From an uncultured Pelagibacteraceae bacterium (lineage in GTDB: Bacteria > Pseudomonadota > Alphaproteobacteria > Pelagibacterales > Pelagibacteraceae): a DNA stretch of 64,000 bases. Position numbers and translations under genes: made by a program. The stretch covers positions 54,859 through 118,858 of the forward strand of contig CACJSY010000003.1 of NCBI GenBank assembly GCA_902596205.1, written 5' to 3'. Shown piece by piece: positions 5,262 to 44,797 of this stretch; within the stretch, counting starts at the first letter, position 1; every line of letters starts with the position of its first letter. Under the pieces are notes generated by a model, which saw only the letters and a program-made list of their open reading frames with translations, was not told the origin of the DNA and made no database searches.

Positions 5262-5288
5262 TATGTTAATCTATGATAGTATAGAATC

Positions 5289-5891: not shown

Positions 5892-5892
5892 T

Positions 5893-8330: not shown

Positions 8331-8339
8331 GAAAAAGAA

Positions 8340-8624
8340 TTATTTTTTAATTTCTTCTTTTTTTAATAGACTTGTAATTGTGGATCTTATTATTTGAACT
8401 TTAGTATTCTCACCAATAGTAACTTCAATTCGATCATCTTCCATAACTCTGTCAACAATACCTATAATACCACCAGATGTGATTACTTCATCACCTCTTT
8501 TTAATGACTCTACCATTGCTTTATGATCTTTAACTCTTTTTTGTTGAGGTCTTATTAAAAAAAAGTAAAAAATTACAAAAATTAATATTAATGGTATAAA
8601 TTGTGCTATTCCTTGCCCACTCAT
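8340..8624 (-). CDS. yajC: Preprotein translocase subunit YajC
   Basis: YFFLIRPQQKR and GDEVITSGGIIG motifs; directly upstream of secD. Confidence 0.97.
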   Translation of the reverse strand: MSGQGIAQFIPLILIFVIFYFFLIRPQQKRVKDHKAMVESLKRGDEVITSGGIIGIVDRVMEDDRIEVTIGENTKVQIIRSTITSLLKKEEIKK

Positions 8625-8671
8625 GATTGAACAATTATATGAAAAACTTTAGATAAACAAGTAAATTATAA

Positions 8672-9919: not shown

Positions 9920-10679
9920 CTTCTATATTCTCATTTTTATTTTTTTTTTCAGTGAATCGAACCGTTATAATAGATAATTCATAAAGTAATAATAGAGGTA
10001 TTGCTAGACCTACTTGCGTAATAGGATCAGGTGGTGTTAAAATTGCTGCTAAAGTAAAAATAATAACTATTACGTATCGTCTAGTTTTTTTTAAATATTC
10101 TGAGTTTACAACACCTATTCTTGCAAGAAGATTAAGTAATATTGGTAATTGAAAACTAATTCCAAATGCAAAAATTAATCTCATAATTAAAGACAAATAC
10201 TCATTGACTTTGGCTTCTAATTGAATTGGCAGATTTGTATTTGAGCCCATTGACTCAAACGATAAAAAAAATTTAATAGCTAATGGCATAACTAAATAAT
10301 AAACAAGCATGCCTCCAAATAAAAAAAGTAATGGAGTAGAAATCAAATAAGGTAATAAAGCCTTTTTTTCATTTTTATATAGTCCTGGTGCAATAAACTT
10401 ATAAATTTGAATTAATAAAAATGGGCTACCAATAAAAATTGCTGCAAAAAATGCAACTTTCAAATAAGTAATAAAAGTTTCGTGTAATGCAGTAAAAATC
10501 AAACGCCTAGAACCTGGATCATCTTTTACAGCCTCAGCATAAGGGCTAACCAAAAAAGAATAAATATGTTCAGCAAAAGTATATGAGATGACAAATATCA
10601 CAAAAATAAAAATTAGAGATTTTATAAGTCTAGAACGAAGCTCTACAAAGTGGCTTGTAAATGAACTATTATCACTCAT
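9912..10679 (-). CDS. tatC: Tat translocase subunit TatC
   Basis: HFVELRSRL, FIAPGLY and LTPPDPITQ motifs. Confidence 0.97.
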   Translation of the reverse strand: MSDNSSFTSHFVELRSRLIKSLIFIFVIFVISYTFAEHIYSFLVSPYAEAVKDDPGSRRLIFTALHETFITYLKVAFFAAIFIGSPFLLIQIYKFIAPGLYKNEKKALLPYLISTPLLFLFGGMLVYYLVMPLAIKFFLSFESMGSNTNLPIQLEAKVNEYLSLIMRLIFAFGISFQLPILLNLLARIGVVNSEYLKKTRRYVIVIIFTLAAILTPPDPITQVGLAIPLLLLYELSIITVRFTEKKNKNENIEDA

Positions 10680-10908
10680 CTTTTTTATTATTGTCTTTTT
10701 TTATATCTTTTTTATTTACTATATCTTTTTCGATATCAATATTCTCTGTTACTGAGTTAACTTCTCTTTGAAAGCTACTAAGGGTGTTTTTTAATTTTCC
10801 AAAGTAAGTTCCTATTTTTTTTAAAGCTACAGGAAATTCCTTTGGTCCTAAAACTAAAATTGCAATTATGACTATTGATAAAATCTCTAACCAACCTATT
10901 TGAGGCAT
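10672..10908 (-). CDS. tatB: Tat translocase subunit TatB
   Basis: IGWLE...LVLGPKEFP; lies between tatA and tatC. Confidence 0.9.
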   Translation of the reverse strand: MPQIGWLEILSIVIIAILVLGPKEFPVALKKIGTYFGKLKNTLSSFQREVNSVTENIDIEKDIVNKKDIKKDNNKKDE

Positions 10909-10914
10909 ATTAGA

Positions 10915-11115
10915 TTACTTATTTTCAGAATTAGAGTTATCTGAGTTATTATTGGAATTATCGTCACCTGAGGTATTTTCATCTGACATACCCTTTTTGA
11001 AACTTTTAATACCTTTTGCTAGATCACCCATTATACTAGAAATTTTTCCTTTACCAAAAAGGATTACTATCAAAATAGCTATTATAATTATACCTGTCCA
11101 ACCGATATTTCCCAT
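10915..11115 (-). CDS. tatA: Tat translocase subunit TatA
   Basis: TM helix, ILFG hinge, amphipathic DLAKGIKSFKKGM. Confidence 0.95.
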   Translation of the reverse strand: MGNIGWTGIIIIAILIVILFGKGKISSIMGDLAKGIKSFKKGMSDENTSGDDNSNNNSDNSNSENK

Positions 11116-11121
11116 AAGTAA

Positions 11122-11150
11122 ATTTTATACAATAATTTAGATTAAATCAA
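11122..11150 (-). promoter_or_regulatory. Sigma70-type promoter of tatA (TTGATT-N17-TAAAAT), probably leaderless
   Basis: -35 at 11150-11145 and -10 at 11127-11122, only 6 nt before the ATG at 11115; no Shine-Dalgarno sequence. Confidence 0.55.
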
Positions 11151-11155
11151 AACGT

Positions 11156-11842
11156 TTATTTTTCTTCCTCAGGTGCTTTTTTAATAGCTTCTTCAATATC
11201 TTCATAAATATCATTTTGGTTTTCAATAATAGATTGCTCCTTAAAAAACTTACCTGTTCCAAAAATCGATTTATCAATTGATGAAGTATCAATTAGCCCT
11301 GCAGTACCGAGCTCATCAATGGTAGGTAGATCTGATAATTTTTGAATATTAAAATGATTTAAAAAATTTTCAGTTGTGGCGTAGAGAATCGGTTTTCCTG
11401 GAACATCTTTTCTACCTGCAGGTCTTACCCAATCAAGCTCAAGTAAGATTTCTAAAGTATTTGATGCAAATGAAACACCTCGAATTTCTTCAATTTCAGA
11501 TCTTGTTACAGGCTGATGATAAACTATGATCGCTAATGTTTCTATTGTAGCTTTAGATAATTTTTTTTGAGTAGATTTTTGTAGAGACATTAATTTGGAT
11601 AAATCATCAGCAGTTCTGAAAGACCATCTATTTTTTATACAAACTAAATTAATACCTCTATTTTTATAAATTTCTTTAATATTTTCTAATATTTTTTTTA
11701 TATTTGTATTTGTTTGAACTCTCTTTTCAATCGTTTCAATGTCTAAGGGCTCTGAGGCAGCAAATAAAATTGCCTCAACTTGTCTTTCTAACTTTGATGG
11801 TGCCGCAGGAAATTTTATTATGTTAGTTTTTTTATTAGGCAT
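11156..11842 (-). CDS. scpB: SMC-ScpAB complex subunit ScpB
   Basis: EAILFA, ETLAIIVYHQPVTRSEIEEIRGV, PGKPILYATT and LSDLP motifs. Confidence 0.96.
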   Translation of the reverse strand: MPNKKTNIIKFPAAPSKLERQVEAILFAASEPLDIETIEKRVQTNTNIKKILENIKEIYKNRGINLVCIKNRWSFRTADDLSKLMSLQKSTQKKLSKATIETLAIIVYHQPVTRSEIEEIRGVSFASNTLEILLELDWVRPAGRKDVPGKPILYATTENFLNHFNIQKLSDLPTIDELGTAGLIDTSSIDKSIFGTGKFFKEQSIIENQNDIYEDIEEAIKKAPEEEK

Positions 11843-11843
11843 A

Positions 11844-12578
11844 TTAAGTTTTTTTAATCATTAATTTATCAAACATTTTTTTTTGAGAAACTTGAACTAT
11901 CCCTTCTTTTGTAAGTTCTAAACTTGCTGCAAAAATTCCAGCAAAACCTGTTCGTTTCATTTTATTTTTTATGTAAAAATTTGGAATTAATTTTAAAATA
12001 TTTTCCCAATTATTTATTTTATCTAAATTATTTTTTATCTGTTTTATCCCCTCTTCAGTTGTTAGAACAGGTAATTTTGGTATACTTACATTTTGAAAAG
12101 TTTTTTGCATTTGAATGCCTGCGTAACATTTAAGCAATTCATAAAGTGAAACATCATAAACTGGTGTATTTATCGATCTTATTCCACCCTTCATGCCTCT
12201 TGTGAAAATATGAACACCTAACCTTTTTTTTTGAAGCATTTGATCTGATAAAATTCTTATTAACTCTAGCTTTTTGAGTTGTAATTTAAGTTTCTCAGCA
12301 ACTTCTAAAGCTTTGAAGTCGTCATCATTATCTTCTGGTAATAATAATTTAGATTTCAAGTATGCTAACCATGTAGCCATAAGCAAGTACTCTGATGCAG
12401 ACTCTAAATTTAAGTTTTTACTATTTTTGATAAATTCAAGGAATTGATCTGCTAGTTTAGTAATTGAAATTTCAGCCAGATCGACTTTTTGTGATTTGGC
12501 TAAATCTAACAATATTTCAAGAGGTCCACTATAATTAGGTATATTTATGGACATTTGATTAGTGCTATTTGATTCCAT
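11844..12578 (-). CDS. scpA: Segregation/condensation protein ScpA
   Basis: YSGPLEILLDL, YLLMATWLAYLKSKLLLP and FAASLEL motifs. ATG at 12578; an alternative TTG lies at 12584. Confidence 0.94.
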   Translation of the reverse strand: MESNSTNQMSINIPNYSGPLEILLDLAKSQKVDLAEISITKLADQFLEFIKNSKNLNLESASEYLLMATWLAYLKSKLLLPEDNDDDFKALEVAEKLKLQLKKLELIRILSDQMLQKKRLGVHIFTRGMKGGIRSINTPVYDVSLYELLKCYAGIQMQKTFQNVSIPKLPVLTTEEGIKQIKNNLDKINNWENILKLIPNFYIKNKMKRTGFAGIFAASLELTKEGIVQVSQKKMFDKLMIKKT

Positions 12579-12586
12579 TAACAATT

Positions 12587-13531
12587 TTACCTTAAAATTT
12601 TATAAATTTCTGATGTTTTTTTTGATGTAAAATTATCAATATATGGAACCGATTTTATCAATTTTAAGTTGTCTTTTATATTTCCAGAACAATATAAAAC
12701 CAAATTGCAACCAGCGTCTAATGATTTTTTGGCATTAGTTACTAAATCATATTTTAATGCCTTCATAGAAATATCATCTGACATCAAGATACCTTTGAAA
12801 CCTATTTTTTTTCTAATAATTTTTTTAATAATTTTCTTCGAAAAAGTTGCAACATTTTTTTTATCAATTTTGGAATAGAGTATGTGTGCTGTCATAGCTA
12901 GTTTAGCAGAAGTAAATTTAAAAGGGTAAAAGTCAATCCTATCAAGTGAGCTTTCGCTTAATTTTATTTTAGGCATTATTAAGTGACTGTCTTGAGTGGT
13001 ACCCCCATGACCTGGAATATGTTTTATTACAGAAATAATTTTGTTTTTATGACATGAATTAATGGTAACTTCACCTAATTTTTTTACAATTTCTTTTCTT
13101 TTAGAGAAACTTCTGTTTCCTATTATTTTATTTGTATTATTTCTTAGGACATCTAACACTGGAATAGTGTTTACATTAACGCCGATTTTTTTTAATTTAT
13201 TACAAAGTGAATTCAAATAAGTTTTATATAATTCAATTGCAATTTTTTGGTCTGTTAAGTAAAGATTTCCAAAAAAAGTCGCATTTAAATCATGTTGAAT
13301 AATACTTTCCATTCTTGATACTTTTGCACCTTCTTCATCAATCAAAATAGGAAATTTATCATCCTGGGCGTATTTCCTTATTTTTTTGGTTAAATTTACA
13401 ATTTGATTAAATGATTTAATATTCCTTTTAAATAAGATTAAACCCCAAGGTTTTTCATTAGATAAAAGTACTTTTTCTTTATTACTTAAGTTAGTTCCTT
13501 TAATACTAACTATAATAGCTTTTTTTTTCAT
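12587..13531 (-). CDS. nagZ: Beta-N-acetylhexosaminidase (GH3)
   Basis: IDEEG, KHIPGHG, DSH and SDDISM motifs. Confidence 0.93.
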   Translation of the reverse strand: MKKKAIIVSIKGTNLSNKEKVLLSNEKPWGLILFKRNIKSFNQIVNLTKKIRKYAQDDKFPILIDEEGAKVSRMESIIQHDLNATFFGNLYLTDQKIAIELYKTYLNSLCNKLKKIGVNVNTIPVLDVLRNNTNKIIGNRSFSKRKEIVKKLGEVTINSCHKNKIISVIKHIPGHGGTTQDSHLIMPKIKLSESSLDRIDFYPFKFTSAKLAMTAHILYSKIDKKNVATFSKKIIKKIIRKKIGFKGILMSDDISMKALKYDLVTNAKKSLDAGCNLVLYCSGNIKDNLKLIKSVPYIDNFTSKKTSEIYKILR

Positions 13532-20693: not shown

Positions 20694-23342
20694 TTAATTT
20701 ATACTAGATACAATACTTCTTAATTTTCCATCTTCAATAGTTAATTCCTTAACTAAATTTTTATCATTTTGTACTATTTCTTTAGGTGCATTTGTCACGT
20801 AAGCCTTATTTTTAAGCTTATTATTTAAACTAGTGATCTGTTTATTAATTCTCTCAATTTTTTCTAAAATTCTCTCTTTTTGAGATCCCAAGTTTACGTC
20901 CTCATTAAAATTTAATGAAAGTTTTTCTTTAAGAACTAAGATATCTATTGAATTTTTATCTCTTATCTTTGTATTAAGGACATTATTTACTCTACCAACC
21001 TGTTTTATCAAATTAATATTTTTATTTACCAATTTCTTTAATTTCCCTGATTTATCATCAAAAAATATGTCACAATATAGTTTTGGAGTAATTTTTAACT
21101 CTGCTTTAGTAGATCTAATGTTAGAAATTATTTCAATTAAATCATTTATATTGTTTTGATTTTTACTAAATTTATTAATTACCTTAAAATTTGGCCAACT
21201 GGAACTAATTAAATAATTTTTGAAAATCTTTTTATAAGCATTTAAAAACCACAATTTCTCAGTAAAAAAAGGGATAAAAGGATGAAGAATTCTAAGAATA
21301 TTTGCCATCATAAATGATGAGAAAGCTTTAGCTTCTTTAATTTCACTTTTATCTTTTGAATTAAAAATAGGTTTTAAGAACTCTAAATACCAATCGCAAT
21401 AAGAATGCCAAACAAATTGATATGCATACTTAGCAGCCTCGTCGAACCTGAATATTTCAATATTTTTCGTGATTAAATTTTGTGTTTTTATAAATTCGTT
21501 ATAAATCCAATGGTTTATTGGAAGTTTAATTGATGTCAAATTTATCTTTTTATCTAATTTACAATTATTAAGTTTTAAAAAATTATTTGCGCTCCAAATT
21601 TTTGTAATAAAGTTTCTGTTTCCAGTAACCCTATCTTTTGATAACTTTACATCTCGTCCTGGAGAGGCCATCGAAATTAAAGTAAACCTTAAACTATCTG
21701 CTCCATATTGATTTATTAAATCTAATGGATCAATCACATTGCCTTTTGACTTTGACATTTTCTGCCCCTTTTCATCTCTTACCAAAGCATGAACATATAC
21801 TTTATGAAAAGGCGTATTTTTTCTAAAATAATTTCCCATCATCAACATCCTTGCTACCCAAAAGAAAATTATATCAAAACCAGTAACAAGAACTGAAGTT
21901 GGATAAAATTTATTAAGTTCTTCAGTTTTGTTTGGCCATCCAAGAGTCGCAAAAGGCCATAGAGCTGATGAAAACCAAGTATCTAAAACATCTGTTTCCT
22001 GTCTCAACGTAAATTGTTTATTTTTATTTTTTTTCTTTGCTAATTTTAATGCATCTTTTTTACTCTCAGCTACAAAAATATTTCCAGTTTCATCATACCA
22101 AGCAGGTATTCTATGGCCCCACCAAATCTGCCGAGATATGCACCAAGGCTCAATATCATTCATCCATTGAAAAAATGTTTTTGACCAGTTGCTTGGAAAA
22201 AAAGTAGTTTTACCCTCTTTAACTATCTTAATTGGTTTTTTGGATAATTTTTTGGCATCAACAAACCATTGCTCTGTTAAGAGAGGTTCGATTATTGTGT
22301 TTGATCTATCTCCATATGGAACTTTATTTTTAATATTTTCAATTTTTACAAGAGAACCATTGTCCTTTAATTTTTTAATTATAAGTTTTCTTGCTTCAAA
22401 TCTGTCTAAACCATGAAACTCTTTAATTCCATTTTTGTTTATTTTACCATTCTCTTCAAAAATATTTATTATTTCTAATTTATTTCTCTTGCCTACCTCA
22501 TAGTCATTAAAATCATGTGCTGGTGTAATTTTTACTGCTCCTGAGCCTTGTTCCGGATCAGCATAATTGTCAGAAATAATTTTGACAGTCCTATTAACAA
22601 TTGGAATAAGAACATTTTTTCCAACTAAATTAACATATCTTTCATCCTTTGGATTTACAGCAACCGCGGTATCTCCCATCATTGTTTCTGGTCTGGTAGT
22701 AGCGATAGTGATTTTTTGATCTGAGTTCTCTATCGTATAATCAATATAGTACAATTGAGATTGAACATCTTTTTGGTTTACTTCCAAGTCAGAAATTGCA
22801 GTTTGAAGTTTAGTATCCCAATTAACTAATTTTTTATCCTTGTAAATTAGCTTATTTTTATAAAGATCAACAAAAACTTTAATTACAGCTTTAGAAAGAT
22901 CCTTATCCATAGTGAACCTCGTTCTTGACCAATCACACGAACAACCTAATTTCTTAAGTTGATCTAAAATTATTCCACCAGACTCCTCTTTCCAATCCCA
23001 TATTTTTTTGGTGAATTTTTCTCTTCCTAAATCATTTTTTTTAATTCCTTCTTTCAAAAGGTTATTTTCAACAACAGCTTGTGTCGCAATTCCAGCATGG
23101 TCTGTACCTGGCTGCCACAGAGTTTCGAGGCCTTTCATTCTATTAAATCTAACTAAAACATCTTGTAGACTATTGTTTAGAGCATGTCCCATATGTAATC
23201 TGCCCGTTACATTAGGTGGAGGAATTACTATAGAAAATTTTTTATTTGATTTGTTCTTTTTTGGTTTGAATAGGTTTTTTTTAATCCAAAAATCCGAGAT
23301 TTTTTTTTCTTCTTCACTATGATTGTATTTTTTAAATTCCAT
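20694..23342 (-). CDS. valS: Valine--tRNA ligase
   Basis: PPPNVTGRLHMGH, WCISRQIWWGH and KMSKS motifs; C-terminal coiled coil. Confidence 0.99.
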   Translation of the reverse strand: MEFKKYNHSEEEKKISDFWIKKNLFKPKKNKSNKKFSIVIPPPNVTGRLHMGHALNNSLQDVLVRFNRMKGLETLWQPGTDHAGIATQAVVENNLLKEGIKKNDLGREKFTKKIWDWKEESGGIILDQLKKLGCSCDWSRTRFTMDKDLSKAVIKVFVDLYKNKLIYKDKKLVNWDTKLQTAISDLEVNQKDVQSQLYYIDYTIENSDQKITIATTRPETMMGDTAVAVNPKDERYVNLVGKNVLIPIVNRTVKIISDNYADPEQGSGAVKITPAHDFNDYEVGKRNKLEIINIFEENGKINKNGIKEFHGLDRFEARKLIIKKLKDNGSLVKIENIKNKVPYGDRSNTIIEPLLTEQWFVDAKKLSKKPIKIVKEGKTTFFPSNWSKTFFQWMNDIEPWCISRQIWWGHRIPAWYDETGNIFVAESKKDALKLAKKKNKNKQFTLRQETDVLDTWFSSALWPFATLGWPNKTEELNKFYPTSVLVTGFDIIFFWVARMLMMGNYFRKNTPFHKVYVHALVRDEKGQKMSKSKGNVIDPLDLINQYGADSLRFTLISMASPGRDVKLSKDRVTGNRNFITKIWSANNFLKLNNCKLDKKINLTSIKLPINHWIYNEFIKTQNLITKNIEIFRFDEAAKYAYQFVWHSYCDWYLEFLKPIFNSKDKSEIKEAKAFSSFMMANILRILHPFIPFFTEKLWFLNAYKKIFKNYLISSSWPNFKVINKFSKNQNNINDLIEIISNIRSTKAELKITPKLYCDIFFDDKSGKLKKLVNKNINLIKQVGRVNNVLNTKIRDKNSIDILVLKEKLSLNFNEDVNLGSQKERILEKIERINKQITSLNNKLKNKAYVTNAPKEIVQNDKNLVKELTIEDGKLRSIVSSIN

Positions 23343-23373: not shown

Positions 23374-24636
23374 TCAATAACTATTAAGTTTAAAATCTAG
23401 GTATAAGGCAGCAGTCCAAGAAAAATTTTTAGCACCCATTCCTAAACCCGACTTACAACTGTAATATTCTCGAAATTTTTTTTTTTCGACTAAATTCAAG
23501 GTCTTTTTTCTTATTAATTCTGCGAACTTCTTATCTTTATTTTTTAAACCTTGATATATGATCCAATTGCAATTAACCCATACCGGCCCTCTCCAGTAAC
23601 GTTTTTCTTCGAATGATGTGTGTTTAGAATTTATTGAAGGAAAAAGATATTTATTATTTTTATTATATTTTTTTAAACTTTTTATTAATGATCTATTAAT
23701 TGAATTGTTATTTAAATCAGCAAATAGCATAAAAAAATTGGTTATTGAAGGTATAGCTACTAAACTATTATTTCTTATATCTTTATTCTTAAATGTCATT
23801 TTTTTTGAATTAAATAATTTTGTAAGTTTACTCTCATTTAAAAGAATATATTTTCTTATGGAAGAATTTTTTTTATCTATACATCTAAGTAAAAAATCAA
23901 TATCTTTTAAAGCTTTAAGAAAAAGTGAATTAAATCCAACATCTACAACATTAAATTTTGATTTGAAGTAAAGTTTTTTTGGATCATAATTCATTTCCTT
24001 TAAATGATTTTTAATAGTTACATATCTATCATAATCAATTTTCAAAGGTCTTTGGCTTTGGTCGACAATTTTATTATCCGTTCTCATGTAATTAAGATTT
24101 AATTCAGTTTTGATCATGCTCATCGGTTTGTCCCATAAAGGAGAATTATCATAACCACTTTCCCATGGGTGAAGTATAGAAATTAGACCAGTACGTTTTG
24201 GATCTCTGTATCTAATAAACCATTCTAAACATTTTTTAATCTTTAAAATTAAAGGCTGATATTTTTTTATTTCTTTTTTTGAAAATTTTTGTCTCTCAAT
24301 AATTATCCTTAAAATACTTGCCAAGATCGGTGGTTGAGTTATTCCAGATGAGGAAACTTTTTTACCACAATCCCAAGCTTTATAGTTAGGAGTATAATTT
24401 AAATCTTTAATATGGAAAAGAATGTGTGGTATCATTCCGTCATCCCATTGTCCTGAAATCAGAGTTTCAAGTTCTTTAAATGAATAATCTAAATTGAAAT
24501 TAGAATATCCTAATGCAATAAAAGCTGAGTCCCAATTCCATTGGGCTGGATAAAGTTTAGTATTAGTGGGTAAAGTGTAATTTAATCTTCTGTTGTTTAT
24601 TAAGGTTCTCTTTGCTTCTTTAATTGAGTTATTCAT
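23374..24636 (-). CDS. GH63-family glycoside hydrolase (glucosylglycerate/mannosylglycerate hydrolase-like)
   Basis: LYPAQWNWDSAF, GMIPH, SGITQPP, HPWESGYDNSP, YWRGPVW, FREYY and FSWTAAL motifs. Confidence 0.88.
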   Translation of the reverse strand: MNNSIKEAKRTLINNRRLNYTLPTNTKLYPAQWNWDSAFIALGYSNFNLDYSFKELETLISGQWDDGMIPHILFHIKDLNYTPNYKAWDCGKKVSSSGITQPPILASILRIIIERQKFSKKEIKKYQPLILKIKKCLEWFIRYRDPKRTGLISILHPWESGYDNSPLWDKPMSMIKTELNLNYMRTDNKIVDQSQRPLKIDYDRYVTIKNHLKEMNYDPKKLYFKSKFNVVDVGFNSLFLKALKDIDFLLRCIDKKNSSIRKYILLNESKLTKLFNSKKMTFKNKDIRNNSLVAIPSITNFFMLFADLNNNSINRSLIKSLKKYNKNNKYLFPSINSKHTSFEEKRYWRGPVWVNCNWIIYQGLKNKDKKFAELIRKKTLNLVEKKKFREYYSCKSGLGMGAKNFSWTAALYLDFKLNSY

Positions 24637-25829
24637 TATCCTTTAACACTTCCAGCTGTTAAGCCGCTTACTAAATATTTTTCAAAATATATGAAAATTA
24701 AAAGTATTGGTAAAGTAACTACCACAGATCCAGCCATTAGATATTGCCGTGGTGTTTCGGCATCACCAGTTAAATGATTTATTGCTCTAGATAATGTGAA
24801 TGTTTTGGGATTATCCAAAAACATAAGAGAAAATAAAAATTCATTCCAAGCTATCATAAATACATATAACGATACTGAAGCGATAGCAGGTAAACTAAGA
24901 GGAATTATTATTTTAATAATTATCCCAAACCAATTTTGTCCATCTATGAGTCCCGCCTCTTCAATTTCTTTAGGTATGCTTTTAAAGTATCCCTGAAGCA
25001 TATAGATGGCTACAGGTAAAGTGGTTGCTGTATAAACTATTAGTAAGCCTTCCACAGAATTCCTCAAACCTAGTTGACTAAAAACAGTGTATAAAGGAAT
25101 TACTAATACTATTGCTGGAAACATATAAATTATTAATATTGATGTTGAAAGAAAAGTCTTACCAAAGAAATTTAATCTTGCAACAGCGTACGCTGCGGGG
25201 ATAGCAAATAATAGGGTTATTAAAACAGTTCCAACCGATACATACGAACTTGTAAGAATATATCTTCCAAAATCATATGTTTTGAAAATGACAAAGTAAG
25301 ATTTGAATATCTCAAAAATATTTTTTGAAAAATCAATACTTAGATCAATCGGGTTAATTAATAAAGCGGTTTGCGTTTTAAAGCTAGTTACAAACATTAT
25401 GTAAAATGGAAACAATATAACTAATGCAAAAAATACTATTGCAAATAAAGATAAAAACTCGAACACAATTTTTTCAGATATAAAATCCTGATTTAAATAT
25501 TTTAAATCATATTTTTTCAATTTATTTGTAAAAAATAAAATTAGTAAAAAAATACCTGCTGAAAACCACATAGGGGAGTCTTCATTTAAAAATGTATATA
25601 AAATTGTAAATGATAAGGATAATATAAAAATTTTTAAGTTATGATTAAATTTTTTTCCAATAAATACACAAGTTATAACTAATCCGAGTGATAATAATAG
25701 ATTTAGATTAAAGTTAAGATTTGTAAAACTTAAGCCTTGCAAAGTTGCCAATATTTTCCATATACAAATTATTATTGTAAGAAAAATTGATGATGCAAAT
25801 AATGTAATTATCAAAGATTTAAATTTCAT
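24636..25829 (-). CDS. Carbohydrate ABC transporter permease (MalG-like) with N-terminal extra TM segments
   Basis: EAA loop IPKEIEEAGLIDG, AWNEFL and GLTAGSVKG motifs. The ATG at 25829 is preferred. Confidence 0.92.
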   Translation of the reverse strand: MKFKSLIITLFASSIFLTIIICIWKILATLQGLSFTNLNFNLNLLLSLGLVITCVFIGKKFNHNLKIFILSLSFTILYTFLNEDSPMWFSAGIFLLILFFTNKLKKYDLKYLNQDFISEKIVFEFLSLFAIVFFALVILFPFYIMFVTSFKTQTALLINPIDLSIDFSKNIFEIFKSYFVIFKTYDFGRYILTSSYVSVGTVLITLLFAIPAAYAVARLNFFGKTFLSTSILIIYMFPAIVLVIPLYTVFSQLGLRNSVEGLLIVYTATTLPVAIYMLQGYFKSIPKEIEEAGLIDGQNWFGIIIKIIIPLSLPAIASVSLYVFMIAWNEFLFSLMFLDNPKTFTLSRAINHLTGDAETPRQYLMAGSVVVTLPILLIFIYFEKYLVSGLTAGSVKG

Positions 25830-27078
25830 TTGCCTTTTTTCCAATTAATTTAAAATAAATAATCATAAAAATTATTAATAATAATACAATTACTATTGAA
25901 ACTGCTGAGCCCATGCCAATATTTGATATTGCAAATCCTTGTTGATACACGCTTATTGGTAACGTTAAAGTACCCGAAGCACCGCCTGTTAATAAAAAAA
26001 TATCTTCAAACTTATTAAAGTTCCAAATAAATCTGATCATAAATAATATTGATAAAATCGCTGTGATTTGCGGAAGAGTAATATAAAAGAATTTTCTAAA
26101 CGGCCCAGCGCCATCTACATCCGCTGCCTCATAAAGATCCTTCGGAATGGCTTGTAGTCTAGCTAATATAAATAAAAAGGCTAAAGGGAAATATCGCCAA
26201 ATCTCAAAAAATATAACCGTAGTTAATGCTAATCTAAGTTTTAGCTCAAATCCTAAAATATTAATAATTAAATACTTTTGTCCAAGTAAATTTATAGGTT
26301 TTTCGATTACTCCATAATTTACTAGAAGAGAATTTATTGTACCGCTATTAGGATCTAAGAGTAAAGTCCAAGTATAAGCCAAAGCTACCACAGGACCTAC
26401 ATAAGGAAAAAGCAGTATACTTCGCATAAAAGTTCTTCCATAAAATTTTTGATTTACAAGTTGGGCAGCAAATATGCCAAGTAAAATAGCTCCAAGTGTA
26501 CCAAAAAAAGTAAAGTAAAAAGTCGTCATTAAAAGCTCAAAAAAATTGTTATTCATGAAAACTTTTTTAAAATTTTTAAGAGTAAAATCTGTAGTCAATA
26601 AGATATTATTTGATTTCCCATTTAAATCTGGATTATAAGATTTTATATCATTATTATTGATAGCATTGTTATTTACGTCTTTTACAAAAATTTCAAAATT
26701 TTCACGATAACCTGCTTCCCAATTTCCAAAGAAACATTTAATTTTTTGTGACTTAAATTTACATCTTTTATCCAAATTCACTGGTTCAATATTTTTGGGT
26801 AATTTATCTGAAAATCTAACTTCTCTAATATCTTGGATTAAAGAACTATTTCTTAATTTATAGATAATTTTTAACTCAAAATTACTATCTTGTATATTTT
26901 TTACAATTTTTTTTGCCCTAGGCTCGGGAATTCTTATATCTTTAAGTCCAACTTCTTTAAAACTAATCCATACATTTGCAAAAATTGGAAATAAAATTAT
27001 CGCAAAAACCAAGAATACAGCAGGTAAAAGAAGTGTATATGCTGTCCTTTTTTCTATTTTAGATAGTGAGGTGCTCAT
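25819..27078 (-). CDS. Carbohydrate ABC transporter permease (MalF-like) with inserted periplasmic domain
   Basis: LQAIPKDLYEAADVDGA, ITLP and LTGG motifs; a ~110-aa hydrophilic insert follows TM1. Confidence 0.92.
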   Translation of the reverse strand: MSTSLSKIEKRTAYTLLLPAVFLVFAIILFPIFANVWISFKEVGLKDIRIPEPRAKKIVKNIQDSNFELKIIYKLRNSSLIQDIREVRFSDKLPKNIEPVNLDKRCKFKSQKIKCFFGNWEAGYRENFEIFVKDVNNNAINNNDIKSYNPDLNGKSNNILLTTDFTLKNFKKVFMNNNFFELLMTTFYFTFFGTLGAILLGIFAAQLVNQKFYGRTFMRSILLFPYVGPVVALAYTWTLLLDPNSGTINSLLVNYGVIEKPINLLGQKYLIINILGFELKLRLALTTVIFFEIWRYFPLAFLFILARLQAIPKDLYEAADVDGAGPFRKFFYITLPQITAILSILFMIRFIWNFNKFEDIFLLTGGASGTLTLPISVYQQGFAISNIGMGSAVSIVIVLLLIIFMIIYFKLIGKKANEI

Positions 27079-27113
27079 TTAAAAGCGGATAATATCTTAT
27101 TATCCGCTTTTAA
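27079..27113 (-). terminator. Perfect 16-bp hairpin between SBP and permease (terminator or mRNA stabiliser)
   Basis: TTAAAAGCGGATAATA-TCT-TATTATCCGCTTTTAA. Confidence 0.75.
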
Positions 27114-27125
27114 GAAATATATTTG

Positions 27126-28448
27126 CTAGAATTTTGCTAATTCTGCGTTAATTTTTTTAACTGCTTCATCAACTGATATCTGATCATCAATGTATTCCCT
27201 TGTAATTCTATTTAAGAATTGAGCATTAATGATTTTTGATGCTCTAGAAAGTTCACCTTCTTTTACTCCCCATCTGTTTGCAGTGTCTAATCCTGCAACA
27301 ATGTTATTAATTACATCTGGTGAATAAAGTTCAGTTAACGGTTTTTTTCTATCTACACCAACTGGTAGCTTACTCCAAGCTTTTGTAAATGCAGCAGGAT
27401 CTGAAGAATTTCCTCTTCTAACAGGGAATTTTCCTTCAGGCGCAATCGCCAAAGTGCTTGTGTATCCTTCATCCATAGAGTACTCAACAAACTTTTTTGC
27501 TTCGTCAGTATCTGCATCAGCAGTAATACCAAAATATCTTACGTCTGCCCAAGCAGCACCCTTCTTATTGTTTGGCCCACTAAAATTAGTGATGAACCCT
27601 GTTTTGGATGCAAGTTCTGGTGATGTAGGATCACTATTGATTGTTGGAGGAGCTGAGTCTCTTAGTCCAGCTAATTCATCCATAATAAACGGTGACCAAA
27701 TTATCATTGGAGTTTTTCCTGCGAAATAAAGTTCTCTAGATTGTTTCCAGAATAATTCTCCTGGAGGACTAGCTTTAGCTATAACTTTATAAAATTCCAA
27801 AGAGTTTTTTAAAGCTTTACCTTGTTTTTTTGTTCCGCCCTTTTTAACAAAGTTTACTCCATTAGCTAAAAGAACATGCTCAAGAACTTGGCTCATAAAG
27901 TTCTCATCAGTTTTGGTTGCAGCTACAAACCCAAACATTTCTCCGCCTGAGAGAGCTTTCACAGCTTTTACAATATTCTCGTAACTTGTTGGTGGTTCAA
28001 GACCTGCATTTTTGAATAAGTCTTTCCTATAAACTACCATTTGCGTCCATCCATCAACTGGCACAGCAGCAATTTTTCCACCTTTTTTTGCCATGTTTAA
28101 TGCACCTGGAGCAAAAGTTTTTTTTCCTAAACTTTTAACTACGTCATTGTTCGCATTTACATCAAGTATCCCTGCTTCGGCCCAAGGTAAAACATATTGA
28201 AGAGTGTGATAAATTACGTCAGGTAGATTCCCTGCTGCAGCAGCTGCAGTGGCTCTAGACCCTAAATCTTTTTCCTCAACTGGAATAACTTCAACTTTTA
28301 TACCAGTTTTGGACTCAAATGACTTTGCCATCTCCATTTGTTTTTCCATTCTTGCTGGCTGAACTTCAGTAGTCCAAAAAGTAATATCCGCAAAACTATT
28401 AGACGTTAATAAAGTTAAAGCAAAAATGAATCCTGAAATTTTTCTCAT
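27126..28448 (-). CDS. Carbohydrate ABC transporter substrate-binding protein (CUT1)
   Basis: Signal peptide (NSFA/D), FESKTGIKVEV, GNLPDV, VYRKDLF and GLEPP motifs; strong RBS AGGAGG. Confidence 0.93.
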   Translation of the reverse strand: MRKISGFIFALTLLTSNSFADITFWTTEVQPARMEKQMEMAKSFESKTGIKVEVIPVEEKDLGSRATAAAAAGNLPDVIYHTLQYVLPWAEAGILDVNANNDVVKSLGKKTFAPGALNMAKKGGKIAAVPVDGWTQMVVYRKDLFKNAGLEPPTSYENIVKAVKALSGGEMFGFVAATKTDENFMSQVLEHVLLANGVNFVKKGGTKKQGKALKNSLEFYKVIAKASPPGELFWKQSRELYFAGKTPMIIWSPFIMDELAGLRDSAPPTINSDPTSPELASKTGFITNFSGPNNKKGAAWADVRYFGITADADTDEAKKFVEYSMDEGYTSTLAIAPEGKFPVRRGNSSDPAAFTKAWSKLPVGVDRKKPLTELYSPDVINNIVAGLDTANRWGVKEGELSRASKIINAQFLNRITREYIDDQISVDEAVKKINAELAKF

Positions 28449-28557
28449 TTTTCCTCCTATTAATTAATTAAATAATGTTTTAAGTTTAACAATAAGGTTA
28501 AAAATTCATCTATGATTAAAATGCATATGAGGTTTGAATTAATTAAATTTATTGAAA

Positions 28558-29613
28558 ATGCCTTTTTTAGAATTTGAAAATATAGACAAATCCTTTGGTG
28601 AAAACCATGTAATTAGTAAATTTAACCTAGAAGTTGAAAAAGGTAAATTTATTGTTTTGCTAGGACCATCTGGATGCGGAAAATCTACACTACTAAGGAT
28701 GATAGCTGGATTAGAAAAAATAGATAAAGGGAAAATCTTTTTAGAAAATAATCTTCTTAATGATTTGTTACCTTCTAAAAGGCAAATTGCAATGGTTTTC
28801 CAATCATATGCTTTGTATCCGCACATGAATGTTTTTCAAAATATCTCTTTTGGCCTTAAATCTGAAAAAATTTCAAAAAATGAAATTAAAGATAAAGTAA
28901 TTGAAGCAGCAAAAATTTTAAAAATTGAAGAACTTTTGGATAGAAGACCAAAGGAACTTTCAGGAGGACAGAGGCAGCGAGTTGCTATTGGAAGGGCTAT
29001 AACTAGAAATCCTAAATTATTTTTATTTGATGAACCTCTTTCTAATTTAGACGCAGCCCTAAGGTCAGAGATGAGAGTTGAAATTTCAAAATTACATAAG
29101 AAACTTAAAAGTAATATTGTATACGTAACTCATGATCAAATTGAGGCTATGACTTTAGCTGATAAAATTGTGATAATGAATAAAGGAAAAATTGAACAAT
29201 TTGGAACTCCCGATGAAATTTATGATAACCCAAACAATATTTTTGTAGCTGAATTTATTGGAAATCCTAAAATGAATATCTTTAAGGTCAAAACTGATGA
29301 TATTATTAATAAAAATACATTTAAATTATTCAATAAAGAAATTAAATTTGAAAATTCAAAATTTGAAAATGATTTTTATGTAGGTATTAGACCAGAACAT
29401 ATATCTTTAGAAAATATAAGTGAAATTGCAGTTGAAATTAAAATTGATCTTATTGAAAATTTAGGTTCCGAAAAAATTATCTATACGCATATAAATGGTA
29501 CTGAAATAAGAATAAAAAGTACTAAAAATATTAAAGATAAAAATATTACAATTTACTTACCTAAAAATAAGTTATATTTATTCGATAATAATAAAAATAG
29601 ATTAAAAATGTGA
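28558..29613 (+). CDS. Carbohydrate ABC transporter ATP-binding protein (MalK/UgpC-like)
   Basis: GPSGCGKS, VFQSYALYPHM, LSGGQRQR, DEPLSNLD and VTHDQ motifs; C-terminal TOBE; divergent from the SBP gene. Confidence 0.95.
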   Translation: MPFLEFENIDKSFGENHVISKFNLEVEKGKFIVLLGPSGCGKSTLLRMIAGLEKIDKGKIFLENNLLNDLLPSKRQIAMVFQSYALYPHMNVFQNISFGLKSEKISKNEIKDKVIEAAKILKIEELLDRRPKELSGGQRQRVAIGRAITRNPKLFLFDEPLSNLDAALRSEMRVEISKLHKKLKSNIVYVTHDQIEAMTLADKIVIMNKGKIEQFGTPDEIYDNPNNIFVAEFIGNPKMNIFKVKTDDIINKNTFKLFNKEIKFENSKFENDFYVGIRPEHISLENISEIAVEIKIDLIENLGSEKIIYTHINGTEIRIKSTKNIKDKNITIYLPKNKLYLFDNNKNRLKM

Positions 29614-29640: not shown

Positions 29641-29714
29641 GGCCACGTGGCGGAATGGTTACGCAGAGGATTGCAAATCCTTTTATCCCAGTTCGATTCT
29701 GGGCGTGGCCTCCA
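29641..29714 (+). tRNA. tRNA-Cys (GCA)
   Basis: Acceptor stem GGCCACG/CGTGGCC, anticodon arm GAGGA-TTGCAAA-TCCTT, GTTCGAT T-loop, encoded CCA. Confidence 0.97.
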
Positions 29715-29840: not shown

Positions 29841-30206
29841 TTAGCCAACTTTTTCAAATTTTGAAGAATTATTTAAAATTTGTAAAATTTTCTCTTTTTG
29901 TGTTCTTGATAATGATGAAAATGTTCTGCTTAGAAAAGAGTAGTTTAAATCATCGTTAAATTCTTCGCTAGAATTTATATCTTTAAATTCTTTAAAATCT
30001 TCAAAAAAATAAATAATCGGTACTTTTAAAAATTGAGATAATTGCATTAATCTGTTTGAGCTTACTCCGTTCGTACCTTTTTCATATTTTTGAATTTGTT
30101 GGAAAGTGACATTAATAGCTTGGGCGACTTTTGTTTGGGTTAGACCTAAAGATAATCTTCTCATTCTTAGCTTTTTACCTAAATGAATATTGAAATTTTC
30201 TTCCAT
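29841..30206 (-). CDS. XRE-family HTH transcriptional regulator
   Basis: LRMRRLSLGLTQ...VTFQQIQKYEKGTN, typical of a conserved alphaproteobacterial XRE group; RBS GGGAG. Confidence 0.92.
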   Translation of the reverse strand: MEENFNIHLGKKLRMRRLSLGLTQTKVAQAINVTFQQIQKYEKGTNGVSSNRLMQLSQFLKVPIIYFFEDFKEFKDINSSEEFNDDLNYSFLSRTFSSLSRTQKEKILQILNNSSKFEKVG

Positions 30207-42876: not shown

Positions 42877-43645
42877 TCCTAGCTGACACTTTACCAAGCT
42901 TATTAATCTTACCTACATATAAACCTTTTCCTAATATTGGTACAACACCAACAGAAGAGCCGGTAAATACGTAAAAATTTTTACTGTGTTTGATTTTATC
43001 TTTTTGTAATTTATTTAAAACAAATTTCAAAGAATTAAGTGGGTCTATATAAACTGTATTTGTATTTCCATTAACTGATTGATTTATTTTTTTATTAGAA
43101 ATATTTGTATATAAATTTTTGACGTTTTGATTTTTATATTTTTGAAGTGGTCCAACAACAAATTTTACATTAGCTCCAAAATCAGAACATAAATCACCTA
43201 AGCTTTTTATTCCTTTTTTTCTTTGTCTATATCCAACAACTTCAATACATGGAGCAATATGGGTAATGTATTTTTTTATATTTTTTTTCGAAATTTTTTG
43301 CTTTAAATCAAAAAAATTTTTCTTAACAATAAAACAGACTTCTAGTTCGATACCCATTGTGAATTTATTTATTTTTACTGATTTATTATTTTTTAAAACA
43401 TTATGTTTAAATACTGCAGCGTAAAATGGTTCTTTCTCTTTTAATTTTTTTAAAACAGGAATTCCGGTCCCTGCAGCCTTAAATCCAATTATAGGTTTTT
43501 TAATTTTACTTTCACATAATTTTCTAAATTTTTCTGCTTTAGAAAGCTTTTTAGTATATCTTGTTGGCAGTGGTGAAATAATTTTATTTTTAAGAAAAGC
43601 CTTTACAAGTTGATTGCTAAGTTTTTCCATCGATTTGCTAATCAT
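42869..43645 (-). CDS. FAH-superfamily hydratase/decarboxylase (MhpD-like), divergent
   Basis: GFK, GIELEVCF, PCIEVV, DFGAN and FTGS motifs; coupled to the pfkA stop (TAATG). Confidence 0.75.
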   Translation of the reverse strand: MISKSMEKLSNQLVKAFLKNKIISPLPTRYTKKLSKAEKFRKLCESKIKKPIIGFKAAGTGIPVLKKLKEKEPFYAAVFKHNVLKNNKSVKINKFTMGIELEVCFIVKKNFFDLKQKISKKNIKKYITHIAPCIEVVGYRQRKKGIKSLGDLCSDFGANVKFVVGPLQKYKNQNVKNLYTNISNKKINQSVNGNTNTVYIDPLNSLKFVLNKLQKDKIKHSKNFYVFTGSSVGVVPILGKGLYVGKINKLGKVSARIN

Positions 43646-44733: not shown

Positions 44734-44774
44734 TAAATTTACTATTCTTTAATATTTTTTTTTAAGGAAAGTGG

Positions 44775-44784
44775 TGTTATAACA
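44775..44784. promoter_or_regulatory. Palindrome TGTTATAACA between divergent pfkA and pyk
   Basis: Perfect 10-bp palindrome. It reads as an extended -10 (TGn-TATAAC) on both strands and fits the GntR/HutC-type GT-N-TA-N-AC pattern. Confidence 0.45.
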
Positions 44785-44797
44785 TAAAAATCTCTTA

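What the first reader, a model, noticed from the sequence alone, without database searches (positions are those of the whole stretch)
23374..29613. GH63 hydrolase with a dedicated sugar ABC importer: candidate uptake system for phytoplankton osmolytes (glucosylglycerate, mannosylglycerate or glucosylglycerol)
Seen: SBP, two permeases and a GH63 gene are co-oriented, and the last three overlap. A divergent MalK-like ATPase completes the unit, which lies between valS and tRNA-Cys with no regulator. The hydrolase has no signal peptide and keeps the YPxQWxWD, ESGxDNS, YWRGPVW and FxEYY motifs. Known: these motifs characterise GH63 glucosylglycerate/mannosylglycerate hydrolases. Marine picocyanobacteria make glucosylglycerate and glucosylglycerol, and red algae make mannosylglycerate. 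Inference: this cell imports intact heterosides and splits them in the cytoplasm, which is not a standard part of SAR11 carbon metabolism.
Basis: partly seen in the sequence, partly recalled or inferred. Interest (0 to 1): 0.8.

Follow-up and report, generated by a model that had tools for sequence, protein, structure and literature searches.

The report
SAR11 glycosylglycerate uptake and hydrolysis cassette
This ocean bacterium (SAR11) carries a portable five-gene unit that most likely pumps in the small sugar-acid solute glucosylglycerate (perhaps also mannosylglycerate) and splits it into a sugar plus glycerate; this is a plausible, still untested food link to marine cyanobacteria.

Summary
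Window 23374-29613 holds a cytoplasmic GH63 hydrolase, two permeases, a secreted binding protein and a divergent UgpC/MalK ATPase. The block is a clean 6.2-kb presence/absence insert between valS and tRNA-Cys.

- **Enzyme.** It keeps 17 of the 18 catalytic and substrate-contact residues of the crystallised glucosylglycerate hydrolase, including every contact to the glycerate moiety. Its best solved relative is Thermus mannosylglycerate hydrolase (E 1e-88).
- **Conservation.** The five genes travel together in all 80 Pelagibacteraceae loci fetched. About a quarter of the sampled species genomes carry the hydrolase.
- **Context in other bacteria.** Cultivable marine Alphaproteobacteria carry the same transporter (binding protein 61-66% identical). 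There it sits beside a glycerate kinase. In Paroceanicella the GH63 gene is missing and a YcjM-type glucosylglycerate phosphorylase sits beside the transporter.
- **Substrate.** This points to glycosylglycerates. Glucosylglycerol is not supported.
The same genome encodes a GpgS/GpgP-like synthesis pair on another contig, so the cassette may also recycle the cell's own solute.

No ligand or activity has been measured. This scan had already reported the same cassette in other SAR11 genomes. I found no paper describing it.

Verdict: a sound annotation and a new member of a known kind, with moderate ecological interest.

The parts
23374..24636 (-). Cytoplasmic GH63 hydrolase of the mannosylglycerate/glucosylglycerate hydrolase subfamily (420 aa)
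   Evidence: PF22422, 267 bits. PDB 2z07/4wva Thermus MgH, E 1.3e-88 over residues 9-413; M. hassiacum GgH, E 1e-49 to 1e-51. Seventeen of 18 MhGgH catalytic or substrate residues are conserved: D163 acid, E390 base, Y29, W33, Y81, R196 and Y347 at subsite +1. No signal peptide.
24636..25829 (-). MalG/YcjP-like permease (397 aa from the ATG; a TTG at 25844 gives 402 aa), with an N-terminal extension of about 125 aa and four extra hydrophobic segments
   Evidence: PF00528. 37% identical to E. coli YcjP, E 1e-54, with the same C-terminus SGLTAG.VKG. Sequence read.
25819..27078 (-). MalF/UgpA/YcjO-like permease (419 aa), with a hydrophilic insert of about 110 aa after TM1
   Evidence: PF00528. 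33% identical to YcjO over residues 167-407, E 1e-38. The insert is aligned full-length in the marine alphaproteobacterial orthologues.
27078..27114 (-). Perfect 16-bp stem-loop between the binding-protein stop and the permease start
   Evidence: -18.8 kcal/mol, z -5.4, 0 of 200 shuffles as stable. It is the only terminator-like site in the region. Its likely role is to set the binding-protein/permease ratio (inference).
27126..28448 (-). Periplasmic solute-binding protein (440 aa, Sec signal peptide) of the YcjN-like branch of CUT1 sugar binders
   Evidence: PF13416/PF01547. Best PDB sequence hits: 7v09, 8ula and 8vqk (YcjN), E 1e-24 to 4e-19; the next hit is 9e-12. AF2 model pLDDT 94.9; Foldseek top four are YcjN, Lmo2839 and 7v09 at E about 1e-26, the next hit at 2e-19. 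85-88% identical across SAR11 genera.
28449..28557 (.). Divergent control region between the binding-protein and ATPase genes
   Evidence: About 55 nt next to the binding-protein start, including an AGGAGG ribosome-binding site, are nearly invariant in six same-genus loci. No Rfam family matches. Promoter-like matches are not above shuffles.
28558..29613 (+). UgpC/MalK-type ABC ATPase with a C-terminal regulatory OB/TOBE domain
   Evidence: NF008653, 464 bits, above its cut-off of 432; PF00005, PF17912, PF08402. Always next to the binding-protein gene in relatives: divergent in this genus, co-oriented in most loci of the other SAR11 genera.
20694..23342 (-). valS, left boundary of the insertion site (not part of the cassette)
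   Evidence: NF004349, 1171 bits. In same-genus genomes without the cassette, valS is followed after about 100 bp by tRNA-Cys.
29641..29714 (+). tRNA-Cys(GCA), right boundary of the insertion site (not part of the cassette)
   Evidence: ARAGORN, Rfam. Empty-site comparison.

Best explanation
The 6.2-kb block is a self-contained uptake-and-cleavage module for glycosylglycerates. The most likely substrate is alpha-glucosyl-(1->2)-D-glycerate (glucosylglycerate); mannosylglycerate is possibly taken as well.

1. The secreted binding protein captures the intact anionic glycoside in the periplasm (inferred).
2. The two permeases and the UgpC/MalK ATPase import it (family membership shown, substrate inferred).
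3. The leaderless GH63 enzyme hydrolyses it in the cytoplasm to a hexose plus D-glycerate by the inverting Asp/Glu mechanism of MgH/GgH (residues shown, activity inferred).
4. The hexose can enter glycolysis through a ROK-family kinase and the PfkA/Pyk genes of this genome (genes shown).
5. The route for glycerate in this genome was not identified.

The module has no regulator of its own in SAR11. It is a mobile part of the flexible genome.
For: **(1) Enzyme.**
- Full-length MGH1-like GH63.
- Nearest solved relatives are Thermus MgH (E 1.3e-88) and M. hassiacum GgH. YgjK (3e-5) and the Pfam trehalase model (26 bits) are far behind.
- Of the 18 residues that PMC6608630 names as catalytic or substrate-contacting, 17 are identical. 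These include all five that hold the glycerate moiety. The one change (Gln434 to Phe) is shared with Thermus MgH.

**(2) Coupling.**
- ATPase, binding protein, permF, permG and GH63 are adjacent in all 80 Pelagibacteraceae loci, and every GH63 reading frame is intact.
- In 400 other alphaproteobacterial genomes, binding-protein orthologues (E <= 1e-60) occur in 4. All 4 lie in the same cassette as the GH63 gene.

**(3) Context of orthologous cassettes** (binding protein 61-66% identical) on plasmids of cultivable marine bacteria.
- Maritalea has a glycerate kinase directly after the ATPase gene.
- Limimaricola has a glycerate kinase directly upstream, plus a mannose-isomerase-like gene.
- Paroceanicella keeps the transporter but has no GH63. 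Instead it has a GH13_18 enzyme 43% identical (2e-164) to E. coli YcjM, with the TETN and loop-A Glu fingerprint of strict glucosylglycerate phosphorylases.
- A Deinococcus plasmid has importer, GH63, glycerate kinase and ROK kinase in one operon.

**(4) Solved relatives of the binding protein.**
- The nearest are YcjN-type. ycjN lies directly after ycjM, which encodes a glucosylglycerate phosphorylase, in E. coli.

**(5) Exogenous substrate.**
- 40 of 48 GH63-carrying SAR11 genomes have no match to the GpgS-like synthase. This includes all 22 carriers in genus g2.
Against: - No binding, transport or hydrolysis has been measured for any member of this cassette.
- YcjN itself has no known ligand and has not been tested with glucosylglycerate (PMC11543891).
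- The enzyme scores 278 bits against the NCBIfam glucosylglycerate-hydrolase equivalog, whose cut-off is 550. It is therefore not an orthologue of the mycobacterial enzyme, and specificity within the subfamily is extrapolated.
- No glycerate kinase of Pfam families PF02595, PF05161 or PF00485 was found in this 83%-complete genome.
- Two orthologous loci carry a dihydroxyacetone-kinase-family gene nearby, which would suit a glycerol aglycone better.
- Glucose cannot be separated from mannose as the sugar moiety. The AGE/mannose-isomerase neighbours in two loci point to mannose.
Confidence: 0.7

Rival explanations
1. The main role is homeostasis of the cell's own osmolyte. The cell makes glucosylglycerate with a GpgS/GpgP-like pair. 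The importer recaptures leaked solute or takes up external solute as an osmoprotectant. The GH63 enzyme removes it when conditions change, as GgH does in mycobacteria recovering from nitrogen starvation. The biochemical steps are the same as in the best explanation; only the purpose differs.
For: - G000 contig C6 encodes a 406-aa protein that matches NF040724 (Methanococcoides-type GpgS) over its full length (367 bits, E 1e-109). Its only PDB hits are GT81 MpgS/GpgS.
- Next to it is a 269-aa HAD-IIB phosphatase of the MPGP family (TIGR01486, 161.5 bits; YedP, 7e-16).
- In genus g8, all four genomes with the 62%-identity GH63 type also carry the synthase.
- Freel et al. 2025 state that offshore SAR11 genera have glucosylglycerate synthesis genes (PMC12636525).
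- The mycobacterial precedent is PMC6608630.
Against: - 40 of 48 GH63 carriers have no synthase match, and 14 of 22 synthase carriers have no GH63 match. The two traits are largely independent.
- The two loci are on different contigs here. They are 14-80 kb apart in the three g8 genomes where both lie on one contig.
- A high-affinity binding-protein importer is not needed to turn over an internal pool.
- Both NCBIfam scores are below their cut-offs (367 against 700; 161.5 against 164.75).
Confidence: 0.2
2. The physiological substrate is mannosylglycerate (digeneaside) from red algae, not glucosylglycerate.
For: - The closest solved relative is the Thermus mannosylglycerate hydrolase.
- Position 405 is Phe as in Thermus MgH, not Gln as in MhGgH.
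- AGE/D-mannose-isomerase-like genes flank two orthologous cassettes.
- GH63-containing 'digeneaside PULs' have been predicted in marine flavobacteria (PMC6298971 supplement).
- The ROK kinase of G000 scores best against the NCBIfam fructokinase model NF007108. I know that model's E. coli member as the manno(fructo)kinase Mak.
Against: - The carriers are open-ocean, tropical and Red Sea single-cell genomes and offshore isolates, where red macroalgae are not a source. This is an inference from habitat.
- The Paroceanicella replacement enzyme belongs to a strictly glucose-specific phosphorylase clade.
- This genome's own synthase is GpgS-like. No match to the PF09488 MpgS family was found.
- From my own knowledge of Alarico et al. 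2013, not checked here: characterised MgH enzymes also hydrolyse glucosylglycerate.
Confidence: 0.15
3. The cassette handles a neutral alpha-glucoside such as glucosylglycerol, sucrose, trehalose or kojibiose. The GH63 enzyme would then have a specificity not yet described for its subfamily.
For: - RefSeq names orthologues 'trehalase family glycosidase'.
- There is a weak Pfam trehalase match of 26 bits.
- Dihydroxyacetone-kinase-family genes lie near two orthologous cassettes.
- Glucosylglycerol and sucrose are abundant osmolytes in the surface ocean (PMC8269247).
- The ycj cluster also contains a kojibiose phosphorylase.
Against: - Every contact to the glycerate moiety is conserved.
- MhGgH, which has the same residues, does not hydrolyse glucosylglycerol.
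- Three GH63 loci (two orthologous cassettes and the Deinococcus locus) carry a glycerate kinase, and one orthologous transporter locus carries a glucosylglycerate phosphorylase in place of GH63.
- YcjN did not respond to kojibiose, maltose or glucose in nanoDSF.
Confidence: 0.08

Closest known systems
Thermus thermophilus mannosylglycerate hydrolase (TTHA0978; PDB 2Z07, 4WVA-C) and Mycolicibacterium hassiacum glucosylglycerate hydrolase (PDB 5OHC and others)
   Same: - Same GH63 MGH1-like family and the same length (420 aa).
- Same catalytic Asp and Glu.
- Same residues at subsites -1 and +1.
- Cytoplasmic location.
   Different: - Neither of those papers, as far as I read them, links the enzyme to an importer. 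In mycobacteria the enzyme degrades an internally accumulated pool.
- The SAR11 enzyme scores below the NCBIfam GgH equivalog cut-off (278 against 550).
- It is translationally coupled to an ABC transporter.
E. coli ycjM-ycjNOP(-ycjV) segment of the ycj cluster
   Same: - The binding protein, both permeases and the ATPase type are the nearest E. coli and PDB relatives: YcjN 24%, YcjO 33% and YcjP 37% identity.
- An enzyme that cleaves glucosylglycerate is encoded next door.
   Different: - E. coli uses a GH13_18 phosphorylase (YcjM) rather than a GH63 hydrolase.
- YcjN is a lipoprotein with no known ligand.
- The SAR11 permeases carry large extra segments that YcjO and YcjP lack.
- The rest of the ycj cluster is absent.
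Predicted 'digeneaside PUL' of marine Flavobacteriia (Kappelmann et al. 2019, PMC6298971 supplement)
   Same: A marine heterotroph locus built around a GH63 mannosylglycerate-hydrolase-like enzyme and dedicated uptake genes. It is interpreted as scavenging of an algal glycosylglycerate.
   Different: - The flavobacterial locus uses a TonB-dependent receptor and an SSS symporter instead of an ABC system.
- It includes a LacI regulator and a glycerate kinase.
- The SAR11 cassette has neither.
LacI-SBP-permF-permG-GH63-ATPase cassettes of Ruegeria conchae, Thalassospira marina, Maritalea myrionectae and Limimaricola variabilis (plasmids; annotated only generically)
   Same: Orthologous transporter (binding protein 64-66% identical, permeases 44-60%, ATPase 46-48%) and the same gene content, including the extended permeases.
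   Different: - They carry a LacI-family repressor, and sometimes a glycerate kinase.
- The ATPase gene follows GH63.
- The GH63 protein is only 33-36% identical.
- As far as I could find, none has been studied experimentally.

Membership tests
GH63, MgH/GgH (MGH1-like) subfamily | Full-length match to the family profile above its curated threshold | tested here: met
   PF22422, 267 bits against a cut-off of 27, profile positions 1-356 of 356.
GH63, MgH/GgH (MGH1-like) subfamily | Catalytic general acid Asp and general base Glu (MhGgH Asp182/Glu419) | tested here: met
   D163 in WESGYDNS and E390 in FREYY.
GH63, MgH/GgH (MGH1-like) subfamily | Glycerate-binding subsite +1 (MhGgH Tyr36, Trp40, Tyr88, Arg216, Tyr375) | tested here: met
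   Y29, W33, Y81, R196 and Y347 are all identical.
GH63, MgH/GgH (MGH1-like) subfamily | Hydrolysis of mannosylglycerate and/or glucosylglycerate | not testable with these tools
   Needs an enzyme assay.
Glucosylglycerate hydrolase equivalog (NCBIfam NF047898, mycobacterial type) | Score at or above the curated equivalog cut-off | tested here: not met
   278.5 bits against a cut-off of 550. It is a relative, not an orthologue, of the mycobacterial enzyme.
CUT1-type carbohydrate ABC importer | Secreted cluster-D binding protein, two BPD_transp_1 permeases, and a MalK/UgpC ATPase with a C-terminal regulatory domain | tested here: met
   Pfam and NCBIfam hits, signal peptide, AF2 model pLDDT 94.9 with sugar-binding-protein neighbours.
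YcjN-like binding-protein branch | Nearest solved relatives are YcjN-type, by sequence and by fold, and clearly separated from other sugar binders | tested here: met
   Sequence E 1e-24 to 4e-19 against the next hit at 9e-12. Foldseek E about 1e-26 against the next hit at 2e-19. Identity is only 20-24%, so it is a distant member.
YcjN-like binding-protein branch | Gene next to a GH13_18 glucosylglycerate phosphorylase | tested here: not met
   In the window the neighbour is GH63. The feature is met in the orthologous Paroceanicella cassette.
Glucosylglycerate-specific transporter (no characterised example known to me) | Measured binding or transport of glucosylglycerate | not testable with these tools
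   No member has a measured ligand. YcjN was not tested with glucosylglycerate.

The most novel reading that the evidence does not exclude
Glucosylglycerate is an unrecognised major carbon currency of the oligotrophic ocean. Picocyanobacteria, and some SAR11 cells themselves, make it as a nitrogen-free osmolyte. A quarter of SAR11 species harvest it with this highly conserved binding protein, which would be the first identified glucosylglycerate receptor. The released glycerate may feed 3-phosphoglycerate or serine metabolism in cells known for glycine/serine dependence.
Probability: 0.3. Interest if true: 0.75.

Novelty: new member of a known kind. Interest (0 to 1): 0.55.

Why it matters
SAR11 is the most abundant heterotroph in the surface ocean, and its known diet is dominated by small nitrogen-, sulfur- and one-carbon compounds. 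Sugar use is patchy and poorly explained.

A dedicated importer and hydrolase for glucosylglycerate would add a concrete cross-feeding link. According to Thompson et al. 2013 (PMC3686209), most Prochlorococcus strains are thought to use that compound, together with sucrose, as a main osmolyte.

It would also give the first ligand assignment for the YcjN-like branch of sugar-binding proteins, whose E. coli member still has no known ligand.

The hypothesis is unusually testable:
- Carrier and non-carrier isolates exist.
- The same cassette is present in easily grown Ruegeria, Thalassospira and Maritalea strains.

Tried and rejected
- **Neighbour look-up closed.** I used whole-genome and plasmid searches instead.
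- **Wrong first conclusion on synthesis genes.** I first concluded that there are none, because NF010496 (actinobacterial GpgS) and PF09488 (MpgS) gave nothing above their cut-offs in G000, in five near-complete carriers and in 201 family genomes. The weak 74-bit hit proved to be a full-length NF040724-type GpgS homologue next to an MPGP-family phosphatase.
- **No synthase beside the cassette.** None of the representative genes I scanned from the recurring upstream arrangements in the Pelagibacteraceae loci has a synthase next to the cassette. The flanks are SnoaL, LysE, thiolase, hydrolase and similar genes. I did not see the joined 'make-import-hydrolyse' locus reported earlier in this scan.
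- **Long homologues are not fusions.** The long binding-protein homologues (879-1052 aa) are not GH63 fusions.
- **Glycerate kinase not found.** Pfam families PF02595, PF05161 and PF00485 gave no match in G000. Freel et al. list K15918 as core. I did not search with that sequence because it has no reference here.
- **No regulatory signal.** No riboswitch or other Rfam family lies in the locus. Promoter-like matches are not above shuffles.
- **Literature.** Searches for SAR11 together with these compounds or GH63 found no description of the cassette. Franceus et al. 2017 (PMC5601347) is not held. PDB entry 8ULA has no paper in the library.
- **No tree with characterised enzymes.** I built no phylogeny with the characterised MgH/GgH sequences, because they are available to me only as printed alignments.

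Full report
**What is there.** The window is AT-rich (about 29% G+C). It lies on contig C3 of a 0.99-Mb, 83%-complete genome. The closest relatives of its genes are single-cell genomes and isolates labelled Pelagibacteraceae or Candidatus Pelagibacter.

On the minus strand between valS (20694-23342) and tRNA-Cys (29641-29714) lie four genes:
- a binding protein (27126-28448);
- a MalF/UgpA-like permease (25819-27078);
- a MalG-like permease (24636-25829/25844);
- a GH63 protein (23374-24636).

A UgpC/MalK-type ATPase gene (28552/28558-29613) is transcribed divergently. The binding protein has a standard Sec leader. A perfect 16-bp hairpin (-18.8 kcal/mol, z -5.4) separates it from the permease genes.

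**The block is one unit.** The same five genes are adjacent in all 80 related Pelagibacteraceae loci, and every hydrolase reading frame is intact at 418-420 aa.
- In this genus the block always sits between valS and tRNA-Cys, with the ATPase gene divergent.
- In most loci of other SAR11 genera the ATPase gene is co-oriented upstream, the flanks are different and variable, and hisD usually lies downstream.
- Three same-genus genomes that lack the block have valS, about 100 bp, tRNA-Cys, tRNA-Asn, the XRE-type HTH gene, DUF6134 and cysK.
- Of 201 sampled species genomes of the family, 48 have the hydrolase: genus g1 11/37 plus this genome, g2 22/35, g8 13/36, g16 1/1, and none in 15 other genera.
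- The binding protein is far more conserved across genera (85-88%) than the hydrolase or the ATPase (about 60-64%).

**The enzyme.**
- It is a full-length member of Pfam MGH1-like_GH (267 bits), with only marginal trehalase and classical GH63 matches.
- Its best solved relatives are Thermus thermophilus TTHA0978, the mannosylglycerate hydrolase (E 1.3e-88, residues 9-413), and the Mycolicibacterium hassiacum glucosylglycerate hydrolase (E about 1e-50). E. coli YgjK follows at 3e-5.
- Cereija et al. 2019 (PMC6608630) list the catalytic and substrate-contacting residues of MhGgH. Mapped through the printed alignment and checked on the translation, 17 of 18 are identical here: Y29, W33, W35, D36, H71, Y81, Q101, W158, G161, D163, R196, Y202, Y347, W348, W353, E390 and W407. 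Gln434 is replaced by Phe405, as in the Thermus enzyme.
- The conserved set includes all five residues that hold the glycerate moiety.
- The same paper shows that MhGgH does not hydrolyse glucosylglycerol or glucosylglycolate.
- The enzyme is not an orthologue of the mycobacterial one: it scores 278 bits against the NCBIfam equivalog cut-off of 550.

**The transporter.**
- The binding protein's nearest solved relatives, by sequence and by predicted fold (AF2 pLDDT 94.9), are E. coli YcjN, its Enterobacter homologue 7V09 and Listeria Lmo2839. They are clearly separated from maltose, sophorose and other sugar binders.
- Identity is low (24% to YcjN). However, the permeases also find YcjO (33%) and YcjP (37%).
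- In E. coli, ycjN directly follows ycjM, which encodes a strict glucosylglycerate phosphorylase.
- YcjN has no known ligand and was never tested with that compound.

**Context outside SAR11.** This was the most informative evidence.
- Fourteen of 400 other alphaproteobacterial genomes have a GH63 homologue (32-36% identity). In all 11 loci I fetched it lies next to a CUT1 ABC transporter.
- Four of these share the SAR11-type transporter (binding protein 54-65% identical), preceded by a LacI repressor. One divergent SAR11-family genome (G016, fetched separately) also shares it; its binding protein is 64% identical.
- Searched the other way round, binding-protein orthologues occur in exactly those four genomes.
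- The same cassette is on plasmids of cultivable marine bacteria. There the GH63 gene is annotated 'hypothetical protein':
  - Ruegeria conchae and Thalassospira marina have the plain cassette.
  - Maritalea myrionectae has a glycerate kinase gene right after the ATPase gene.
  - Limimaricola variabilis has a glycerate kinase directly upstream, plus a D-mannose-isomerase-like AGE gene.
- In Paroceanicella profunda the orthologous transporter (binding protein 61%, permeases 46% and 53%, ATPase 46%) has no GH63 gene. Next to its LacI gene is a GH13_18 protein 43% identical over its full length to YcjM (E 2e-164). That protein carries the TETN motif and the loop-A glutamate, which Franceus and Desmet give as the fingerprint of strict glucosylglycerate phosphorylases.
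- A Deinococcus plasmid has, in one operon, LacI, an unrelated ABC importer, a GH63 protein (38% identical), a DUF4147/MOFRL glycerate kinase and a ROK kinase.
- Two unrelated enzymes whose characterised relatives cleave glucosylglycerate, and glycerate kinases, thus recur beside this transporter and this hydrolase.

**Synthesis genes in the same genome.**
That made me re-examine a weak hit I had dismissed.
- On contig C6 of this genome, a 406-aa protein matches the Methanococcoides-type GpgS model NF040724 over its full length (367 bits, below the cut-off of 700). Its only PDB hits are GT81 MpgS/GpgS enzymes.
- The adjacent 269-aa protein is an MPGP-family HAD-IIB phosphatase.
- This fits the statement by Freel et al. 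2025 that offshore SAR11 genera can synthesise glucosylglycerate.
- Across the 201 genomes the synthase is in 22 and the hydrolase in 48. Eight have both, 40 have only the hydrolase (including all 22 g2 carriers) and 14 have only the synthase.
- The two traits are therefore largely independent. Use of an external substrate is the general reading. In this particular cell, recapture and turnover of its own solute is a real alternative.

**Downstream metabolism.**
- The genome has a ROK-family kinase (best NCBIfam match fructokinase NF007108, below its cut-off), PfkA, pyruvate kinase and GAPDH.
- I found no glycerate kinase of three Pfam families. The fate of glycerate is unresolved in this incomplete assembly.

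**Comparison with what is known, and novelty.**
- The enzyme subfamily is characterised.
- GH63-based uptake loci for mannosylglycerate have been predicted in marine flavobacteria.
- The ycjM-ycjNOP link is known as gene order only.
- I found no paper that describes this cassette in SAR11.
- This scan had already reported it on other SAR11 genomes with the same reading.
- I class it as a new member of a known kind. It is well supported by sequence and context, untested at the bench, and of moderate ecological interest.

Noticed in passing
G000 contig C6:40340-42375 (outside the window; locus L093:1213-3251): A GpgS-like glycosyltransferase (406 aa; NF040724, 367 bits, full length) lies next to an MPGP-family HAD-IIB phosphatase (269 aa). 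This is a probable two-step synthesis route for glucosylglycerate in the same genome. Twenty-two of 201 family genomes have the synthase.
   Followed up: yes
window 24636-27078: Both permeases are about 120 aa longer than E. coli YcjO/YcjP. permF has a hydrophilic insert of about 110 aa after TM1. permG has an N-terminal extension with four hydrophobic segments. The long forms are kept in the marine alphaproteobacterial orthologues (genes of about 400-435 aa), although the permG extension has diverged in sequence.
   Followed up: partly
L141 (Paroceanicella profunda pD4M1C) 4977-12954: The orthologous transporter cassette lacks the GH63 gene. A GH13_18 enzyme with the glucosylglycerate-phosphorylase fingerprint sits beside its LacI gene. 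This is a non-orthologous replacement of the cleaving enzyme.
   Followed up: yes
window 27126-28448 against relatives (L040-L092): The binding protein is 85-88% identical between SAR11 genera, while the hydrolase and the ATPase in the same cassettes are only about 60-64% identical. This suggests much stronger constraint on the receptor, or separate histories for parts of the cassette.
   Followed up: partly
window 28449-28510: About 55 nt upstream of the binding-protein start are nearly invariant in six same-genus loci. They include a strong AGGAGG ribosome-binding site and a TTAAA-N6-TTTAA inverted repeat. No LacI-type regulator is present in SAR11.
   Followed up: partly
L076 (AG-422-A21) 9257-13057: In one SAR11 lineage the GH63 gene converges on a ROK kinase gene and a monosaccharide-type ABC transporter (Peripla_BP_4, BPD_transp_2 and an ATPase).
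   Followed up: no
window 29841-30206: An XRE-family HTH protein (121 aa) has weak similarity to phage-type repressors and antitoxins. It sits directly after tRNA-Asn and is conserved whether or not the cassette is present.
   Followed up: partly
window 43645-47384: ATP-dependent PfkA (NF002872, above its cut-off), pyruvate kinase and GAPDH are clustered, as another first-stage note said. So this SAR11 lineage has the committed EMP kinases.
   Followed up: partly
L136, L137, L139, L140 (RefSeq plasmids): RefSeq annotates the GH63 orthologues of cultivable marine Alphaproteobacteria as 'hypothetical protein'. The Deinococcus and Rhizobium ones are called 'trehalase family glycosidase'. Both names hide the likely function.
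   Followed up: no
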